DNA of 64,000 nt from an uncultured Bacteroidota bacterium. GTDB lineage: Bacteria; Bacteroidota; Ignavibacteria; UBA10030; UBA8401. The stretch spans positions 117,837 through 181,836 of the forward strand of contig CAWGZY010000001.1 in NCBI GenBank assembly GCA_963827085.1, in the 5' to 3' direction. The translations under genes were made by a program, and so were the position numbers. This document shows, piece after piece, positions 27,502 to 31,766 of this stretch (its first letter is position 1; the number at the start of each line of letters is the position of its first letter). The notes below the pieces were generated by a model that saw nothing but the letters and a program-made list of their open reading frames with translations, was not told where the DNA came from and ran no database searches.

Positions 27502-27652
27502 ACGGTAATATATTGATTCTTTTGCCCATTTTCATCCACTCGTGTTTATTGGTAGTGGGGTCTTTTGCTTTTCAAACCGGAAGGAGGCTTAAATGAGCTT
27601 CTTTCGGCGTGACAAAATTTCAGGGAGAAGAATTTGGCATGGAAAAATTATT

Positions 27653-28108
27653 TCATTGCATCTCTGCAAGCTCGGTGTCAAATCGGTTTTTGCATTCTGG
27701 ACAAAGTGCGTAAGAACCCTTTCCAATATCCCAGTAGAATTGGAGAATCGACTTCTTTCTATCCTGATAGCACTTTGCGCAAATCCAGTGCATTGGCTCG
27801 GCGGTCTTATTCGATTCATTGGGCGCGTAAACATAAGCCCCCAATTTAAGTTTTTTAAGGCTATACAACGCGGCTGTATCATCCCAGCGTTCAAAGCTCA
27901 GAATTTTCTTTTCAAGTTCGTCTTTTTGCTTCAAGAGAGAAAAATGATCTTCTTGGAGCGTAAGTGCATTGCTTTGTATGGTGAAAATCCGTTCGCGCAA
28001 ATCAGAAGTAGCCTCAAAGATTTGTTTCTCATCGTGAATAGATTGTAAGCCTTTAGCGATGTTCGATAATGCGCCAATTGAACTAATAAACGCTGAAAAG
28101 TCTGCCAT
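27653..28108 (-). CDS. cargo protein: N-terminal helix/coiled coil plus a zinc-ribbon-like C-terminus
   Basis: RBS aagggaga before ATG; HWICAKC...LCPEC (two CxxC). Confidence 0.75.
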   Translation of the reverse strand: MADFSAFISSIGALSNIAKGLQSIHDEKQIFEATSDLRERIFTIQSNALTLQEDHFSLLKQKDELEKKILSFERWDDTAALYSLKKLKLGAYVYAPNESNKTAEPMHWICAKCYQDRKKSILQFYWDIGKGSYALCPECKNRFDTELAEMQ

Positions 28109-28158
28109 GATTTCTCCCTTGCTGGTTGGTGGTTGACAATATCTTTAGAATTAACCGA

Positions 28159-28223
28159 AAATTCAAATTTGAAAAAGGCTTAAAAATGACGTAAATTCAT
28201 TCAGAAAAACATCGTGTGCCGTC
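28159..28223 (+). promoter_or_regulatory. 65-bp repeat, copy 1: palindrome plus sigma70-like promoter
   Basis: 63/65 identical to 29395-29459; TTCAAATTTGAA palindrome 28162-28173; -35 TTGAAA 28169, 17-bp spacer, -10 TAAATT 28192. Confidence 0.8.
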
Positions 28224-28295
28224 CTGGATGCACGATAAGAGAATTTAAAAATCCCCCCGTTCCGCGCATTGACGCGGAGGGTGAACGCAAGTTCA
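28204..28295 (+). ncRNA. candidate structured RNA, copy 1, truncated by an IS end
   Basis: Leader hairpin ATCGTG..CACGAT; TCCGCG-CATTGA-CGCGGA; TGAAC-GCAA-GTTCA; interrupted at 28296 by GGTAGTG. Confidence 0.6.
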
Positions 28296-28332
28296 GGTAG
28301 TGCTCAATTTTGAAAGGAAGGCTTAAAATGAG
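28296..28332 (+). repeat. internal (nested) IS1-type left-end-like sequence
   Basis: GGTAGTGCTCAATTTTGAAAGGAAGGCTTAAAATGAG parallels the outer end GGTAGTGGGGTCTTTT...GGAAGGAGGCTTAAATGAG. Confidence 0.7.
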
Positions 28333-28678
28333 ACAGAATCAAGATGACAGAATTTCAGTAGATAAAACTTGGCACAATAAAGAACAAGGCTTGCTCGTCT
28401 TTGGACATTTCCTACATTCAAACGGTGGGATGGACTTGATTGACATAGACAGCGACGGAACGGATTTGATTATTCGGGTAAGAGAATACAGTATGGAGTC
28501 GATAAAATCTGGAGAAATAACAGATGATTCCAAGTCACTGGACTACGTAGAAATGAGAATAGCAATCAGTAGAATTAGGCGTAGATGGTTTAGGTCTTTA
28601 ATTGTACGTCTAAAACTCGGAGCGCGGAAGTCCAAACGGTATATAGATCATTATAGTGTCCGACTCGTACGTCCTTGA
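28328..28678 (+). CDS. hypothetical cargo protein
   Basis: ORF starts at the ATG after AAGGAAGG in the nested end; no recognisable motif; 3' end overlaps the convergent ORF. Confidence 0.4.
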   Translation: MRQNQDDRISVDKTWHNKEQGLLVFGHFLHSNGGMDLIDIDSDGTDLIIRVREYSMESIKSGEITDDSKSLDYVEMRIAISRIRRRWFRSLIVRLKLGARKSKRYIDHYSVRLVRP

Positions 28679-28832
28679 TTGTTTTGTCGTCTGGAATTAT
28701 CTCCACAAAGTATTCTTCCGGCACACGATGAGTTACTGTTACGCGGAAAGTTTTATCCTTGTATTTACAAGGTATAGTTTTTGATGTGTTATTGAGAGGA
28801 AGGAAGTCGTCTAAAGAAAGTGGAAAGTCCAT
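28590..28832 (-). CDS. hypothetical cargo protein (80 aa)
   Basis: RBS aggag upstream; directly downstream of the lipoprotein gene on the same strand. Confidence 0.6.
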   Translation of the reverse strand: MDFPLSLDDFLPLNNTSKTIPCKYKDKTFRVTVTHRVPEEYFVEIIPDDKTIKDVRVGHYNDLYTVWTSALRVLDVQLKT

Positions 28833-28872
28833 AGCAGCTCCTATAATTATGAGGACGCTTTATCATTTTTTA

Positions 28873-29319
28873 CTATCGGCATTGACCGTACAGCGGGATT
28901 GTTATTGGGCTGCTTGCCGTTGTAGCGTTGTGTTTGATAGTAAGATACCCGTAATGGTTTCCCGTAGCTAAGGGTTTGTATTGCATCAAAATATCAATCT
29001 CCGTGCCCGGCAATAACAGAAAATTTGGGCCGCCCGACATAAGAGAAAAATAGGTTCCTGTAACCGCTACGCTCCCCGAAAGGCTGGCGTTTGATGTTGA
29101 GGGGTTTAAAATGATTACGTTTGCGGTTGTGGCCGTTGAAACCGGGTTCAGCCCAAAGTAGAGATAGCCTTGATATGCTAAATCTGCGGTGATGGTAATG
29201 TTAATAACTGTCCCTGGTGGAGTGGTTACTGTTGACGTTTGGGGGTTGCTTGAATCCTTCTTACAGCTAAAGAAGAGAACTGAGCAAAGCAGAAGTGGTA
29301 AGTATAGAATGGTTTTCAT
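28873..29319 (-). CDS. cargo lipoprotein with a beta-sandwich (ASH/choice-of-anchor-D-like) domain
   Basis: RBS aaaggaga; signal peptide with lipobox FFSC-KKD; C-terminal GYLTIKHNA...ITIPLYG pattern. Confidence 0.75.
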   Translation of the reverse strand: MKTILYLPLLLCSVLFFSCKKDSSNPQTSTVTTPPGTVINITITADLAYQGYLYFGLNPVSTATTANVIILNPSTSNASLSGSVAVTGTYFSLMSGGPNFLLLPGTEIDILMQYKPLATGNHYGYLTIKHNATTASSPITIPLYGQCR

Positions 29320-29394
29320 GTGTTCTCCTTTGCGGATGGTGAAGGGCGTTAAGGTATTCTAAATTGCAACGGCAATATGCTTACAATTAAGTGT

Positions 29395-29459
29395 AAATTC
29401 AAATTTGAAAAAGGCTAAAAAATGACGTAAATTCATTCAGAAAAACATCGTGCGCCGTC
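29395..29459 (+). promoter_or_regulatory. 65-bp repeat, copy 2: palindrome plus sigma70-like promoter
   Basis: TTCAAATTTGAA 29398-29409; -35 TTGAAA 29405, -10 TAAATT 29428. Confidence 0.8.
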
Positions 29460-29560
29460 GCGGGTGTGCGACCAAAGAAATTTCAAAAAATCCTTCTCGT
29501 TCCCTGCTCGACAGGGAGGGCAATCGAAAGTTTGCTCCGCGACACGGGAGGGATTTTTTT
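29440..29560 (+). ncRNA. candidate structured RNA, copy 2 (leader hairpin, three-way junction, U-tail)
   Basis: 16-bp closing stem 29485-29500/29544-29559; TCCCTG-CTCGA-CAGGGA; GCAATC-GAAA-GTTTGC; junction TCCGCGAC complementary to GTCGCGGG 29457-29464; compensatory changes versus copy 1. Confidence 0.72.
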
Positions 29561-29569
29561 ATTGTGAAT

Positions 29570-30106
29570 ATGCCGCGAAAGAAAATTCCGGGAGAATTTC
29601 TGAGGATTAACGAAGAAGAAGATGGGCAATTCAGAATTGAGTACTCCTTTGAAGGAAATCCTTATTGGGTAAAGATGAGTGTTGGCTCAACGTCTATGTC
29701 CGCGGACGGTTTAGTTGGGGAACACAACGTAAACGCGCTAATCGAATTATTGGCTTCGCTACCGGAAGATAACGCCGATGCAATGAAGTTAAAAATACAG
29801 CTTCAGGAAAATAGAATTTTAGCAGTTTGGCCACAAATGTACATTGCTTACCGCAAGGGAGAGAACTTGGGGCAATTTTTTCAAGGCGATGTTAATCAAG
29901 AGAAGGAAATAAACCCTGTGGTTCCTATCAAGGAATGGTTACAAAGCAAAGCTAAGTTCGCCGAGTTCGTGAGGGATGAGTATGAGAAAAATCAGAATAA
30001 GTATAAGAGTTTAAAGGACGCAACGGAAAAGATATATGCTCAATATGTCTTTCCAAACGAAGAGTGGACATTTAAACAATGCTATGATTTTGTGAGGAAA
30101 AAGTAA
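29570..30106 (+). CDS. hypothetical cargo protein, possibly DNA-binding at the C-terminus
   Basis: ATG 29570 lies just after the RNA U-tail; 178 aa; helical basic C-terminus followed by TGTGA repeats. Confidence 0.65.
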   Translation: MPRKKIPGEFLRINEEEDGQFRIEYSFEGNPYWVKMSVGSTSMSADGLVGEHNVNALIELLASLPEDNADAMKLKIQLQENRILAVWPQMYIAYRKGENLGQFFQGDVNQEKEINPVVPIKEWLQSKAKFAEFVRDEYEKNQNKYKSLKDATEKIYAQYVFPNEEWTFKQCYDFVRKK

Positions 30107-30158
30107 AAATGTGAAAGAATGTGAAGGTTTGTGATTGATTATGTGAAGATTTTCGTGA
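30091..30158 (+). repeat. phased TGTGA repeats (operator/iteron-like)
   Basis: TGTGA at 30091, 30110, 30120, 30130, 30142 and CGTGA at 30154. Confidence 0.65.
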
Positions 30159-30202
30159 TAATTTGCCCTTTCCCGCCTGCTATATTATCCCTGTTCGTTT
30201 AA

Positions 30203-30344
30203 ATAAAAATCCCCCTTCCAATGAGCTTTGGAGAGGGGGCTAATTCACTAAAACCGTCCAACAATACGAAGGGAATAGGTGTATGAGTAACGTGCTTAAA
30301 ATAATACTGTCTGCCCGTTAGGGGAGGCGGGTTATTCCTTCGAC
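30203..30344 (-). ncRNA. candidate ~140-nt small RNA with its own promoter and terminator
   Basis: Minus-strand TTGATT(30379-30374)-N17-TATCTT(30356-30351); internal stem CGAAGGAATA/TATTCCCTTCG; ends in hairpin CCCCCTCTCCAA..TTGGAAGGGGG plus ATTTTTATTT; no ATG ORF. Confidence 0.55.
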
Positions 30345-30397
30345 AACTGAAAGATAAAAAGTTCTTTCGAGAGAATCAAGAAAAATTAAAATACTAC

Positions 30398-30426
30398 TTG
30401 ACAATAGATATAGTATGTATTATATT
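30398..30426 (+). promoter_or_regulatory. near-consensus promoter for a leaderless HTH gene
   Basis: TTGACA-N17-TATATT, 5 nt before ATG 30432; ATACTA..TAGTAT inverted repeat straddles the -35. Confidence 0.8.
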
Positions 30427-30431
30427 AAACC

Positions 30432-30629
30432 ATGACAAAGATGAAAGAGTTAAAAACGGTTGACGGCTCGGAATACTTTACGATCAAGGAAGCGGCGAAG
30501 ATATTGGGAATAGAAGCCAATTCCATCCGTAACTATCTATCATGGGGAAAGATCACAGCATACAAATTCAAGAGTTTAACGCTGATTAGCAGAGAAGAAA
30601 TCGAACGCTGGAAGGAGTTACAGAAGTAA
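30432..30629 (+). CDS. excisionase/MerR-like helix-turn-helix protein (HTH_17 type)
   Basis: YFTIKEAAKILGIEANSIRNYLSWGKITAYK...LISREEIERW. Confidence 0.88.
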   Translation: MTKMKELKTVDGSEYFTIKEAAKILGIEANSIRNYLSWGKITAYKFKSLTLISREEIERWKELQK

Positions 30630-30632
30630 ATT

Positions 30633-30708
30633 AAATAGCGAAGCCGCAAGTGTTTGTAGCACCTACGGCTTCTAAATCACTTGTCCGAGTGAACGGACAA
30701 ATAACCTC
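30633..30708 (-). ncRNA. candidate ~75-nt antisense RNA upstream of the transposase
   Basis: Minus-strand TTGATT(30743-30738)-N17-TACCTT(30720-30715); hairpin TTGTCCG..CGGACAA; 13-bp hairpin GAAGCCGTAGGTG/CACTTGCGGCTTC that pairs fully (with G-U) only on the minus strand. Confidence 0.55.
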
Positions 30709-30767
30709 GTTTAAAAGGTACGTTCATGATCGGACAAAATCAAGTCCAAAATAAAGGAGATTTTGCC

Positions 30768-31601
30768 GTGAACGCACTAACAACAGAAAAGAAAGCCCTT
30801 GTTCTTACGCACCTTGTAGAAGGGCTAAGTATCCGGTCCATCGAAAGAATCACTGGCATCACCAAGCGGGCTATTCTCCGCGTCCTCGTTGAGTATGGAG
30901 AGAGAGCTAAAGAGATTCAGGAACGAGAGATGGTAAACCTTCAATCTAACTTTGTCCAGGTAGATGAGATTTGGACGTACGTAGGCAAGAAGCAAAAGCA
31001 ATTAACACCGTTAGACAGTGAAGAGTTAGGCGATCAATACGTATTTGTCGCTATGGACTCCGAGACAAAGCTCGTGCCTTCGTTCTTAGTAGGCAAACGG
31101 AATATGGAAAACTCGCTCGAAATTATGAAGGATTTACAATACAGAATCACTAATCGTTTTCAGCTTACAACGGATGCCTTTATTCCTTATTTTAATGCGG
31201 TCGATTCAGTGTTTGGAGAGGATGTTGATTACGGACAGATTCACAAAGAGTATCGAGAAGAAACAAAAGGCGAGAAACGATATTCCCCCGCAGAGTTTGT
31301 GAGGGTAATAATAAAGCCCTTAATCGGAAGTCCAAAACGGTGGCGAATCTCAACGAGCCATATCGAAAGACAGAATCTTACAATCAGAATGCAAATGAGA
31401 AGATTTACACGGCTTACAAACGCTTTCAGTAAGAAGTTAGAAAACCTAAAAGCGGCAACAGCATTGCATTTCTTCCATTACAACTTTATGAGAATCCATT
31501 CGAGCCTCAGAGTAACGCCCGCAATGGAAGCGAAGATCACGAAAAAAGTATGGGAATGGAATGACTTAATGTCATACGGTCAAATAAAACAAGCGGCATA
31601 A
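30768..31601 (+). CDS. IS1-family DDE transposase (single ORF with N-terminal HTH)
   Basis: LVEGLSIRSIERITG HTH; VQVDEIWTYV, TTDAF, STSHIERQNLTIRMQMRRFTRLTNAFSKK; GTG start after aaaggaga (ORF opens at 30726). Confidence 0.93.
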   Translation: MNALTTEKKALVLTHLVEGLSIRSIERITGITKRAILRVLVEYGERAKEIQEREMVNLQSNFVQVDEIWTYVGKKQKQLTPLDSEELGDQYVFVAMDSETKLVPSFLVGKRNMENSLEIMKDLQYRITNRFQLTTDAFIPYFNAVDSVFGEDVDYGQIHKEYREETKGEKRYSPAEFVRVIIKPLIGSPKRWRISTSHIERQNLTIRMQMRRFTRLTNAFSKKLENLKAATALHFFHYNFMRIHSSLRVTPAMEAKITKKVWEWNDLMSYGQIKQAA

Positions 31602-31766
31602 AAAATGAAAAGACCCCACTACCTGTTTATTGGTAGCGGTATAGTTTGGAAGGCTTTCGGATACTTTCTTGGTTAACCCTATAAAACAAAACACGTATCG
31701 CGAATTCTCTAATAACTTCTCCGTTTGAATCAATTCGAAATTGAAATCAAGAGCCGAAGAGCAATT

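What the first reader, a model, noticed from the sequence alone, without database searches (positions are those of the whole stretch)
28159..29560. Duplicated promoter plus covarying three-way-junction RNA inside an IS1 cargo transposon (c4/CI-like antisense module)
Seen: a 65-bp repeat (63/65 identical; 28159-28223, 29395-29459) holds a palindrome overlapping TTGAAA-N17-TAAATT. Downstream, sequence identity falls but structure is kept: a leader hairpin, then UCCGCG/CGCGGA versus UCCCUG/CAGGGA (two compensatory pairs), GG, and a GNRA hairpin (GCAA versus GAAA). The complete copy closes with a 16-bp stem and U-tail. Its 8-nt junction UCCGCGAC can pair with the leader loop GUCGCGGG (29457-29464). 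G-U pairs favour the plus strand. Known: phage P1 c4 and P4 CI RNAs are branched antisense RNAs that pair with complementary sites in their own transcript. Inference: an RNA switch or immunity module controlling the gene at 29570. The differing leader loops (GUCCUGG versus GUCGCGG) could be specificity variants. I do not recognise this arrangement in an IS.
Basis: partly seen in the sequence, partly recalled or inferred. Interest (0 to 1): 0.85.

Follow-up and report, generated by a model that had tools for sequence, protein, structure and literature searches.

The report
New pseudoknotted leader RNA in IS1-family transposons
The repeat marks two copies, one intact and one truncated, of a previously uncatalogued ~120-base folded RNA that sits in front of variable cargo genes on IS1-type jumping genes, and it most likely acts as a built-in transcription brake rather than as a phage-style antisense immunity RNA.

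Summary
Positions 28137-28251 and 29373-29487 are a direct repeat, 83% identical over 115 nt with a 63/65 core.

Comparative data show the RNA is real. Two covariance models found 14 full copies in genomes (13 of 151 sampled genomes of the order) and 39 in metagenome contigs. In a structure-blind alignment of 43 distinct sequences, all five helices covary. The 8-bp loop-junction pseudoknot is 99.7% paired, with compensatory changes at 6 of 8 positions, and neither the search pattern nor the models contained it. Rfam 15 has no match.

The RNA lies in a 4,073-bp IS1-family transposon with 22-nt inverted repeats and an 8-bp target duplication. It sits just upstream of a hypervariable orphan gene ("X"). 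Its closing 12-bp helix is followed by a U-tract in 45 of 45 copies.

Copy 1 is truncated after P3 and lacks the junction, the 3' strand of P1 and the U-tract.

Best reading (about 0.45): a cis-acting attenuator leader of cargo genes. The c4/CI-like antisense reading is not supported: no family match, no downstream target, and the same pseudoknot sequence recurs in many elements.

The parts
27543..27550 (.). Left copy of the 8-bp target-site duplication TGTTTATT
   Evidence: Read. The same 8-mer lies directly after the right inverted repeat.
27551..27572 (+). Left terminal inverted repeat (IRL) of the 4,073-bp IS1-family transposon; begins GGTAGTG
   Evidence: the repeat finder I1: 22 nt, 91% complementary to 31602-31623. 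Related elements have the same GGTAGTG terminus (G170a I6; G008 I2).
28162..28197 (+). Copy 1 promoter-like site: palindrome TTCAAATTTGAA overlapping TTGAAA-N17-TAAATT
   Evidence: The motif AAAAATGACGTAAATT is conserved, with one or two changes in some, upstream of the RNA in 11 of 15 aligned copies.
28208..28295 (+). Copy 1 of the RNA, truncated. Kept: P0 (28212-28218 / 28229-28235), loop GUCCUGGA (28221-28228), a decayed P1 5' strand, P2 (28261-28266 / 28273-28278) and P3 (28282-28286 / 28291-28295). Missing: junction, P1 3' strand and U-tract.
   Evidence: CM score only 43.5 bits against 116.2 for copy 2. Fold z = -0.9. The partner 8-mer TCCAGGAC occurs nowhere else in the window. Sequence identity to the intact relative L344 stops right after P3.
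28296..28302 (+). GGTAGTG, an IS1-type terminus motif, at the break point of copy 1. It is followed by an SD-like AGGAAGG and the ATG of ORF 28328-28678.
   Evidence: The resemblance to the IRL at 27551 is limited: 7 + 5 nt plus the GGAAGG(A)GGCTTAAA block. That this is a remnant IS end is inference.
29398..29433 (+). Copy 2 promoter-like site: same palindrome and TTGAAA-N17-TAAATT
29444..29562 (+). Copy 2, the complete RNA. P0 29448-29454 / 29465-29471. Pseudoknot strand in the P0 loop 29457-29464. P1 29489-29500 / 29544-29555. P2 29501-29506 / 29512-29517. P3 29520-29524 / 29531-29535. Junction (pseudoknot partner) 29536-29543. U-tract 29556-29562.
   Evidence: CM hit of 116.2 bits. The MFE fold equals the drawn structure, z = -3.5. 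All five helices covary in 43 distinct homologues. RNAalifold independently returns P0-P3.
29570..30106 (+). Cargo gene X (178 aa), 8 nt after the U-tract: an orphan N-domain plus a ~57-aa C-terminal three-helix domain
   Evidence: No Pfam, NCBIfam or PADLOC family. phmmer found 87 relatives; the C-domain (residues ~120-177) lies at the C-terminus of proteins of 63-545 aa. AF2 model of the C-domain: pLDDT 89.6, three helices.
30268..30340 (+). Conserved 3' element downstream of X: core GGTGTATGAGTAACGTGCTTAAAATA (30278-30303) plus a hairpin
   Evidence: The 19-mer recurs, with <= 3 mismatches, downstream of X in G170a, G170b, L331, L333, L337, L345 and L353, and in a G005 locus that has no copy of the RNA (alignment). 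It is the point where G170a and G170b become identical again after their different X cassettes.
30432..30629 (+). HTH_17 / excisionase-family small protein with its own strong promoter-like site (TTGACA-N17-TATATT, 30398-30426)
   Evidence: PF12728 E = 1e-11; TIGR01764 E = 2.3e-9. Promoter scan 11 of 12.
30726..31601 (+). IS1-family DDE transposase (291 aa)
   Evidence: PF03400 E = 1.4e-7, 32.4 bits, above the 24.1 cut-off. NF033558 E = 1.6e-18, 67.4 bits, below its 100 cut-off.
31602..31623 (-). Right terminal inverted repeat (IRR)
   Evidence: I1.
31624..31631 (.). Right copy of the target-site duplication TGTTTATT

Best explanation
The repeat is two copies of one new family of ~120-nt structured RNA. 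The RNA forms the 5' leader of cargo genes ('X') carried by a lineage of IS1-family transposons.

Anatomy, 5' to 3': a promoter-like site; hairpin P0; an A/U-rich linker; then a three-way junction (P1 closing P2 and P3). The junction strand between P3 and P1 pairs over 8 bp with the P0 loop, forming a pseudoknot. The 12-bp P1, which is highly conserved in sequence, is followed at once by a U-tract. The start codon of X lies 11-22 nt after the GGA that ends P1.

Proposed mechanism (inferred): the compact pseudoknotted fold locks P1, and P1 plus the U-tract acts as an intrinsic terminator. The leader would then attenuate transcription into X, either leakily or in response to a still unknown ligand or protein.

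Copy 2 (29444-29562) is intact and governs the gene at 29570. Copy 1 (28208-28295) lost the junction, the P1 3' strand and the U-tract at a break that carries an IS-end motif. It now serves only as a promoter plus an unterminated leader for ORF 28328-28678.

Shown: the structure, its strand, its conservation, its position and the truncation of copy 1. Inferred: transcription from the predicted promoter, termination at the U-tract, and any switching.
For: Structure:
- 14 full copies from 13 of 151 sampled genomes of the order.
- In a MAFFT alignment of those 14, 98.1% of cells are paired against 86.4% in shuffles and 40-53% with slid partners. 22 of 38 pairs show changes on both sides. The pseudoknot is paired in 100% of cells.
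- With 31 added metagenome copies (43 distinct rows): 98.0% paired, 24 pairs with two-sided change, pseudoknot 99.7% paired with 6 of 8 positions compensatory, 0 of 500 shuffles as high.
- The pseudoknot was in neither the search pattern nor the two covariance models.
- RNAalifold independently predicts P0-P3.
- Strand: many G.U cells; + strand z = -3.5 against - strand z = -1.1.

Terminator-like platform:
- T-rich tract directly after P1 in 45 of 45 aligned copies.
- In G170a, G170b and G147 the RNA has no promoter-like site of its own and lies between a 78-81-aa ORF and X. It is then an intra-operon element, which fits an attenuator.

Leader of X:
- An ORF of 178-279 aa starts within about 25 nt of the U-tract in 12 of 14 genome copies, and an ORF of 135-255 aa follows the RNA in the 3 metagenome loci examined.
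- X ORFs are intact, so read-through must occur.
- G170a and G170b are about 97% identical through the RNA up to the U-tract, then carry unrelated X genes (217 vs 192 aa).

Not needed by the transposase: 0 of 16 loci holding related IS1-family transposase genes have the RNA at E <= 1. In the window, the HTH_17-transposase unit has its own promoter-like site.
Against: - No transcript data: no RNA run was listed for this DNA, so promoter use and termination are untested.
- No conserved alternative (anti-terminator) pairing was found. By eye, a candidate linker/P1 pairing did not follow the P1 changes in the AAUGC variants.
- A three-way junction closed by a 12-bp stem is an unusual terminator.
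- The extreme sequence conservation of both P1 strands (6 of 12 pairs never vary) hints at a sequence-specific partner that the model does not explain. Part of that invariance comes from selecting the metagenome hits with a P1 pattern.
- Two intact copies (G084a, G084b) have no full-length X behind them, so X is not always the regulated target.
- The sequences are related, so covariation counts overstate the number of independent events.
Confidence: 0.45

Rival explanations
1. The RNA is a product in its own right. In this reading it is a stable ~125-nt small RNA, ended by P1 plus the U-tract, that works with or against the protein encoded just downstream. The layout would match a type III toxin-antitoxin or another RNA-protein cargo module: promoter, pseudoknotted RNA, terminator, protein gene.
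For: The order promoter - structured RNA - U-tract - ORF is kept in 12 of 14 genome copies. The RNA-X unit is small, hypervariable in X, repeated within elements (window; L352) and carried on mobile DNA. X has no known family. The conserved P1 sequence could be a protein-binding site.
Against: No tandem RNA repeats; there is one unit per ORF. X has no ToxN/AbiQ-type or other toxin or defence family hit. The RNA stays nearly constant while X is swapped for unrelated sequence. Only short C-terminal segments of some X proteins resemble one another. Two intact RNAs lack a full X.
Confidence: 0.2
2. The RNA is a 5' UTR element acting after transcription. It would stabilise the mRNA 5' end or tune translation of X. 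In that case the U-rich tract is an unstructured ribosome landing site rather than a terminator.
For: The start codon lies 11-22 nt after the GGA of P1, with no SD-like sequence in between. The P1 3' strand (GAAGGA or GGAGGG) is SD-like and is sequestered in P1.
Against: The SD-like sequence is 10-22 nt from the start, too far for a usual SD. The tract is T-rich rather than A/T-rich in 45 of 45 copies, which fits a terminator better. A five-helix pseudoknotted fold is more than a stabiliser needs.
Confidence: 0.15
3. One reading: a c4/CI-like antisense immunity RNA. A processed RNA would use its junction 8-mer to pair in trans with the leader loop of its own or an incoming element's transcript, with loop variants acting as specificities.
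For: The loop-junction complementarity is real and covaries. The RNA is on a mobile element and in the leader of its own operon, as with P1 c4 and P4 CI (recalled from the literature, not checked here).
Against: No Rfam hit at E <= 10. The two 8-mers lie at a fixed spacing within one fold. Their variation is no greater than that of P0 or P3. GCCUUAGA or GCCUUGGA occur in most copies from different genomes, and both copies of one element share one sequence. There is no downstream + strand target in the element at <= 1 mismatch. In the window, copy 1's loop does not match copy 2's junction.
Confidence: 0.07
4. The conserved sequence works as DNA. In this reading it is a recombination or binding site that marks the 5' edge of exchangeable X cassettes, and the apparent RNA structure is secondary.
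For: The identity between G170a and G170b breaks exactly at the 3' end of the RNA and resumes at a second conserved element. An IS-end motif sits at the break in copy 1. P1 is a 12-bp inverted repeat of nearly fixed sequence.
Against: Compensatory changes in five helices and frequent G.U pairs that would be A.C on the other strand. Only the + strand folds well. A DNA site would not need a pseudoknot. Homologous recombination in conserved flanks explains the cassette swap without any site-specific function.
Confidence: 0.03

Closest known systems
Phage P1 c4 / P4 CI antisense RNAs (Rfam C4-type families; properties recalled, not read here)
   Same: A structured RNA encoded in the leader of its own operon on a mobile element. 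It carries a short segment complementary to another site of the same transcript, and that complementarity covaries.
   Different: No covariance-model match. The pairing here is an internal pseudoknot of one fold. There is no downstream target near the regulated gene. The host element is an IS1-family transposon, not a prophage immunity region. The pseudoknot sequences are not diversified between elements.
Transcriptional riboswitch or attenuator leaders built on a three-way junction with a loop-junction pseudoknot (for example the SAM-I architecture; recalled)
   Same: 5' UTR position, multi-helix fold with covariation, a conserved core around the junction, a long-range pseudoknot, and a U-tract right after a helix.
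   Different: No known ligand and no alternative anti-terminator helix found. The closing helix of the fold is itself the terminator-like stem. The downstream genes are orphan, hypervariable cargo proteins rather than metabolic genes.
RNA control elements of other insertion sequences: IS10 RNA-OUT, and the IS200 left-end terminator with its 5' UTR hairpin (recalled)
   Same: An RNA-level brake encoded inside an IS.
   Different: Those act on the transposase mRNA and are simple hairpins or antisense RNAs. This RNA precedes cargo genes, is absent from 16 of 16 related IS1-family loci tested, and is a five-helix pseudoknotted fold.
Type III toxin-antitoxin loci such as ToxIN (only the search listing and abstract of PMC5086642 were seen; details recalled)
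   Same: The order promoter - pseudoknot-forming RNA - terminator - protein gene, carried on mobile DNA.
   Different: No tandem repeats. The downstream protein has no ToxN/AbiQ-like or any other family hit.
IS1-family elements with passenger genes (the ISfinder 'ISMhu11'-type description is recalled; two papers mentioning IS1 family and passenger genes were seen only as listings)
   Same: GGTAGTG-type inverted repeats, an 8-bp target duplication, a single-ORF IS1-family transposase, and cargo between the IRL and the transposase.
   Different: Three literature searches found no description of a conserved structured RNA in such elements.

Membership tests
C4-type antisense RNA (P1 c4 / P4 CI; Rfam C4, c4-2, c4-a1b1) | Match to the family covariance model | tested here: not met
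   cmscan of the whole window at gathering score: 0 hits. 27900-29800 at E <= 10: one unrelated lncRNA hit only.
C4-type antisense RNA (P1 c4 / P4 CI; Rfam C4, c4-2, c4-a1b1) | Complementary target sites both upstream and downstream of the RNA in the same transcript, the downstream one near the regulated gene (feature recalled) | tested here: not met
   The upstream partner exists (29457-29464). No + strand match to GTCGCGGR at <= 1 mismatch between 29465 and 31623.
C4-type antisense RNA (P1 c4 / P4 CI; Rfam C4, c4-2, c4-a1b1) | Excision from the primary transcript by RNase P-type processing | not testable with these tools
   No RNA run was listed.
C4-type antisense RNA (P1 c4 / P4 CI; Rfam C4, c4-2, c4-a1b1) | Recognition sequences diversified between heteroimmune elements | tested here: not met
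   U-A at column 17 in 34 of 43 rows and C-G at columns 15 and 16 in 36 of 43 each. The two copies of one element share the same 8-mer (L330a and L330b).
Intrinsic-terminator attenuator / riboswitch-like leader | Conserved structured domain in a 5' UTR, supported by covariation | tested here: met
   position relative to the ORFs.
Intrinsic-terminator attenuator / riboswitch-like leader | Stem followed directly by a U-tract | tested here: met
   P1 then T-rich tail in 45 of 45 copies. The simple terminator scan does not list it, because that scan allows loops of 3-8 nt only.
Intrinsic-terminator attenuator / riboswitch-like leader | Mutually exclusive alternative structure (anti-terminator), or a known ligand or effector | tested here: inconclusive
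   No covarying alternative was seen by eye on the alignments. RNAalifold pairs the invariant GG of J2/3 with the invariant UC that the pseudoknot also uses, which could be a competing contact or a base triple. Ligand unknown.
Type III toxin-antitoxin | Antitoxin RNA made of tandem direct repeats | tested here: not met
   One RNA unit per ORF; the copies lie 1,236 nt apart with genes between them.
Type III toxin-antitoxin | Toxin of a ToxN/AbiQ, CptN or TenpN family | tested here: not met
   No Pfam or PADLOC family above noise for 10 X proteins.
IS1 family insertion sequence (host element) | IS1-type DDE transposase | tested here: met
   PF03400 at 32.4 bits against the 24.1 cut-off. NF033558 at E = 1.6e-18 but below its equivalog cut-off.
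IS1 family insertion sequence (host element) | Terminal inverted repeats and a short target-site duplication | tested here: met
   22-nt inverted repeats, 91% complementary. 8-bp TGTTTATT on both sides.

The most novel reading that the evidence does not exclude
The RNA is a sensor, either a ligand-binding or a protein-binding riboswitch-like domain. Its pseudoknot-locked closing helix would gate expression of exchangeable, hypervariable cargo cassettes in IS1-family transposons. It would work together with a second conserved element at the 3' side of each cassette, which in several relatives is followed by a type-II tRNA gene with a UAU anticodon. That would make this a cassette-expression system of a kind not described for DDE insertion sequences.
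Probability: 0.2. Interest if true: 0.8.

Novelty: new variant of a known kind. Interest (0 to 1): 0.62.

Why it matters
IS1 is one of the oldest studied insertion-sequence families. Its known control is protein-based (InsA repression and frameshifting; recalled). A strongly covarying five-helix pseudoknotted RNA inside IS1-family transposons is not in Rfam 15 and did not turn up in three literature searches.

The RNA marks the 5' edge of a cargo slot whose gene is swapped between otherwise near-identical elements. It therefore gives a handle on how such transposons carry and express variable cargo.

It is also a clean candidate for a new RNA family. It has about 45 sequences, independent support for a pseudoknot and a testable terminator platform, so the question of function can go straight to reporter, Term-seq and in-line probing experiments.

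Tried and rejected
- Rfam: nothing at gathering score in the window. Nothing relevant at E <= 10 in 27900-29800 or at E <= 5 in 30100-30450.
- Exact 14-mer scans of genome contigs and viral contigs gave only chance hits. One hit, L022, was read and is not the RNA.
- The viral-contig scan with the two-strand P1 pattern gave 2 loci, neither of which matches model R2.
- Expression data: no RNA holder was listed. This counts neither for nor against expression.
- Class-level sample: 1 of 151 genomes had a hit, and that was the window's own genome. Only 24 first-look candidates per genome were scored, so weak or divergent copies may have been missed.
- Anti-terminator: a linker/P1 5' strand pairing was considered and dropped. 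The linker does not follow the C-to-G change of P1 in the AAUGC variants G108b, G084b and L322 (by eye).
- Bridge-RNA-like guide idea: the variable 8-mers do not match the IS ends or the target duplication of the window or of G170a (by eye).
- Idea that the -35 box lies inside an IRL: in L352 copy b, GGTAGTG lies 21 nt upstream of TAAATT, but the spacing differs from the window's promoter. My pattern for the general case found 0 of 367 loci. Not claimed.
- Inverted repeats of IS type were not found within the 3.1-kb loci of G026, G022, G123, G100, G039 and G108b.
- X protein: the atlas gave only unnamed clusters. The word-index search gave 1 hit. Foldseek against the PDB with the C-domain model gave no match at E <= 0.001; the best rows are three-helix DNA-binding domains at E >= 3.6. 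'HTH-like' is therefore only a lead.
- Literature: three searches and passages of one preprint (which mentions IS110 only) showed nothing on an IS1-family structured RNA. Papers were seen as listings, abstracts or passages only. Supplements were not opened.
Full report
1. THE OBSERVATION

The repeat finder reports 28137-28251 and 29373-29487 as a two-copy direct repeat of 115 nt at 83% identity. In the pairwise alignment the core 28159-28223 / 29395-29459 differs at 2 of 65 positions.

The core holds the 12-bp palindrome TTCAAATTTGAA overlapping TTGAAA-N17-TAAATT. The promoter scan lists that site at 28169-28197 and 29405-29433.

Downstream, identity drops but pairing is kept. P2 is TCCGCG/CGCGGA in copy 1 and TCCCTG/CAGGGA in copy 2. 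P3 ends in GCAA versus GAAA.

Only copy 2 has the closing stem (29485-29500 with 29544-29559, 88% complementary, I16) and a T7 tail. The loop 8-mer at 29457-29464 and the junction 8-mer at 29536-29543 are complementary, with 7 Watson-Crick pairs and one G.U.

Copy 2 folds into exactly this shape on the + strand (-48 kcal/mol, z = -3.5). The - strand gives z = -1.1, and copy 1 gives z = -0.9.

2. IS IT A REAL RNA?

Rfam 15 has nothing at gathering score in the window, and nothing relevant at E <= 10 around the repeat.

A BLAST of the whole element against 40 relatives picked up short matches to the RNA part in two genomes. In both, the loop and junction 8-mers had changed together: GCCUUAGA/UCUAAGGC and GCCUCGGA/UCCGAGGC.

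I built a covariance model from these three sequences, leaving out the pseudoknot. It found:
- hits in 3 of 54 genomes of the family;
- hits in 13 of 151 sampled genomes of the order;
- 14 full-length copies of 86-123 bits in all.

On a MAFFT alignment of those 14:
- 98.1% of pair cells are standard pairs, against 86.4% in column shuffles and 40-53% when the partners are slid;
- 22 of 38 pairs change on both sides;
- the pseudoknot is paired in every sequence.

A metagenome scan with a degenerate pattern for the two P1 strands gave 78 loci. A second model, again without the pseudoknot, scored 39 matches at 92-123 bits in them.

With 31 non-duplicate metagenome copies added (45 rows, 43 distinct):
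- the structure is 98.0% paired;
- 24 pairs show two-sided change;
- the pseudoknot is 99.7% paired with compensatory change at 6 of 8 positions;
- 0 of 500 shuffles reach the observed values.

RNAalifold independently predicts P0, P1, P2 and P3.

Caveats:
- The sequences are relatives, so cells are not independent events.
- The metagenome set was selected on P1, and both sets on P0, P2 and P3 through the models.
- The pseudoknot was selected by nothing, so it is the cleanest test.

Weaker, divergent copies keep the architecture. G001 pairs UUUCCGAA with UUCGGAAA, and G026's second copy has a shifted 6-bp pairing. G102 has a deletion derivative that retains only P0 and the outer part of P1.

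3. WHERE IT SITS

The window's element runs from 27551 to 31623 (4,073 bp). It has 22-nt inverted repeats starting GGTAGTG and an 8-bp direct repeat TGTTTATT on both sides. It is single-copy in its genome.

It encodes:
- an IS1-family transposase (30726-31601);
- an HTH_17/excisionase-family protein (30432-30629), which has its own strong promoter-like site;
- several orphan ORFs.

An IS1-family transposase gene lies downstream of the RNA in 7 of the 14 genome copies: window, G084b, G170a, G170b, G147, G123 and G100. The same holds for 3 of 3 metagenome loci whose genes I read: L352, L288 and L294.

None was seen in the DNA examined for the other seven:
- G022 (an IS1595-like gene by eye, on the other strand);
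- G026 (a two-gene island between argF-like and uppS-like genes, named by eye);
- G039;
- G118;
- G108a (a tyrosine integrase by eye, upstream);
- G108b (only 1.5 kb downstream read);
- G084a.

Conversely, 16 loci with related IS1-family transposase genes have no copy of the RNA at E <= 1. At least one of these, in G008, is a 3.6-kb element with GGTAGTG ends. The RNA therefore belongs to the cargo part of these transposons, not to the transposase core.

4. WHAT FOLLOWS THE RNA

In 12 of 14 genome copies an ORF of 178-279 aa begins within about 25 nt of the U-tract. G084a and G084b have only 39- and 20-codon remnants there.

These X proteins match no Pfam, NCBIfam or PADLOC family and are 10-22% identical to the window's X.

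For the window's X, phmmer over 1.84 billion representatives found 87 relatives. They split into an N-domain (residues 4-130) and a ~57-aa C-domain. The C-domain occurs at the C-terminus of proteins of 63-545 aa. It models as a three-helix bundle (pLDDT 89.6) and has no significant PDB neighbour.

G170a and G170b show the logic of the locus. The two elements are about 97% identical from the IRL through a small ORF and the RNA, up to the U-tract. They are then unalignable across X (217 vs 192 aa). They become about 95% identical again from a second conserved element through the transposase. X is thus an exchangeable cassette between two conserved non-coding elements.

The window carries the same 3' element at about 30268-30340.

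5. COPY 1

Its loop, GUCCUGGA, is that of a sub-lineage whose junction reads UCCAGGAC (L336, L344, L350, L292, L353). The window has no such 8-mer except the complement of the loop itself.

Copy 1 matches L344 through P3. It then continues with GGTAGTG (28296-28302), an SD-like AGGAAGG and the ATG of ORF 28328-28678, where the junction, the P1 3' strand and the U-tract should be. Its P1 5' strand has two T-to-C changes.

Copy 1 is therefore a truncated copy, and the break carries an IS-end motif. That this reflects a nested or abutting IS end is inference.

6. MECHANISM

Shown:
- a strand-specific fold in a leader position;
- a P1 that is near-invariant in sequence;
- a T-rich tract directly after P1 in 45 of 45 copies;
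- a start codon 11-22 nt after the GGA of P1 with no SD in between.

In G170a, G170b and G147 the RNA has no promoter-like site of its own. It lies between a small ORF and X.

The simplest reading is a cis-acting attenuator. The pseudoknot ties the P0 loop to the junction and stabilises the three-way junction, and P1 plus the U-tract then terminates transcription. Intact X genes imply read-through that is either leaky or regulated.

I found no covarying anti-terminator and no effector, so 'switch' remains conjecture. I put the attenuator reading at about 0.45. The existence and shape of the RNA I put above 0.9.

Rivals:
- a stable small RNA acting with X, type III TA-like in layout but without repeats or a known toxin (0.2);
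- a post-transcriptional 5' UTR element (0.15);
- the c4/CI-like antisense model (0.07);
- a DNA-level site (0.03).

7. AGAINST THE c4/CI READING

- No family match.
- The two 8-mers are parts of one fold at fixed spacing.
- Their variability equals that of ordinary helices.
- The same 8-mers recur across many genomes and within two-copy elements.
- No downstream target exists.

It resembles c4/CI only in being an operon-leader RNA on a mobile element with internal complementarity.

8. NOVELTY

This is a new RNA family. It is absent from Rfam 15, and three literature searches found no description.

It belongs to a known general kind, the structured leader or attenuator. Its setting is new: cargo slots of IS1-family transposons.

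In the samples searched it is confined to one bacterial order. At order level 13 of 151 genomes have it. At class level only the window's own genome did, out of 151.

Interest is moderate to high. The structure is unusually well supported and the function is open and testable.

Noticed in passing
window 30268-30340; also L267 2400-2480, L275 520-600 (-), L331, L333, L337, L345, L353, L020: A second conserved non-coding element lies downstream of the X cassette. Its core is GGTGTATGAGTAACGTGCTTAAAATA, followed by a hairpin and flanked by GGAATAGG/CCTATTCC-like arms. It marks the 3' edge of the swapped cassette in G170a and G170b. It has no Rfam match at E <= 5.
   Followed up: partly
L352 3089-3177 and 4050-4140; L330 1482-1570; L331 1327-1412 (-); L337 1607-1692 (-); L333 594-682 (-); L345 3155-3243 (-): In several metagenome relatives the 3' element is followed by an 86-91-nt type-II tRNA gene (long variable arm). 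The anticodon is UAU, except in L331, where ARAGORN reads a four-base anticodon (gata). One copy scores 64.7 bits with Rfam tRNA and another only 35.9 bits with tRNA-Sec. A long-arm tRNA body with an Ile anticodon is odd. The window has no tRNA.
   Followed up: partly
window 30091-30160: Five TGTGA(A/T/G) repeats spaced about 10-12 bp apart lie just after the stop codon of X, and resemble iterated protein-binding sites. The stretch 29930-30191 is 82% identical to a place in G001.
   Followed up: no
window 29927-30103 (X residues 120-178); proteins P0011-P0088: A ~57-aa C-terminal domain with no Pfam family, consensus W.GTK.EFA.FV..EY...YKSL.DA..KLF..Y.F...WTK..CYDLVKK. It is attached to many unrelated N-terminal regions in proteins of 63-545 aa. 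The AF2 model is a three-helix bundle.
   Followed up: partly
window 31632-31648: Directly after the right target duplication comes GGTAGCGGTATAGTTTG, which resembles the IRL (D11, 80% over 25 nt including the duplication). The element may have landed next to an older solo IS end.
   Followed up: no
window 27593-28108: Two overlapping 151-codon ORFs lie on opposite strands. The - strand one (27653-28108) has a coiled-coil-like N-half and CxxC...CxxC zinc-ribbon-like motifs (weak Pfam DUF4379, E = 0.051). The + strand one looks like a shadow frame. Its start region resembles the promoter/SD block of the RNA repeat (D3).
   Followed up: no
L267 1247-1492; L275 1627-1872 (-); L270 1634-1870 (-): A 78-81-aa basic protein with the motif RNPAAVALGRLGGLKGG lies immediately upstream of the RNA on the same strand in G170a, G170b and G147. 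The G170a protein has no Pfam family at E <= 0.05.
   Followed up: partly
L273 1501-1563 (-), genome G102: A deletion derivative of the RNA keeps P0 and only the outer AAUCC/GGAUU part of P1 plus the U-tract. The whole three-way junction is missing.
   Followed up: no
L352 3221-3262: In this metagenome element an IS1-type terminus, GGTAGTGTCTTAATTTGAAA, lies directly upstream of the second RNA copy. It is nearly the same as the IRL of the G170 elements. This suggests that stacked left-end segments build multi-cassette elements.
   Followed up: partly
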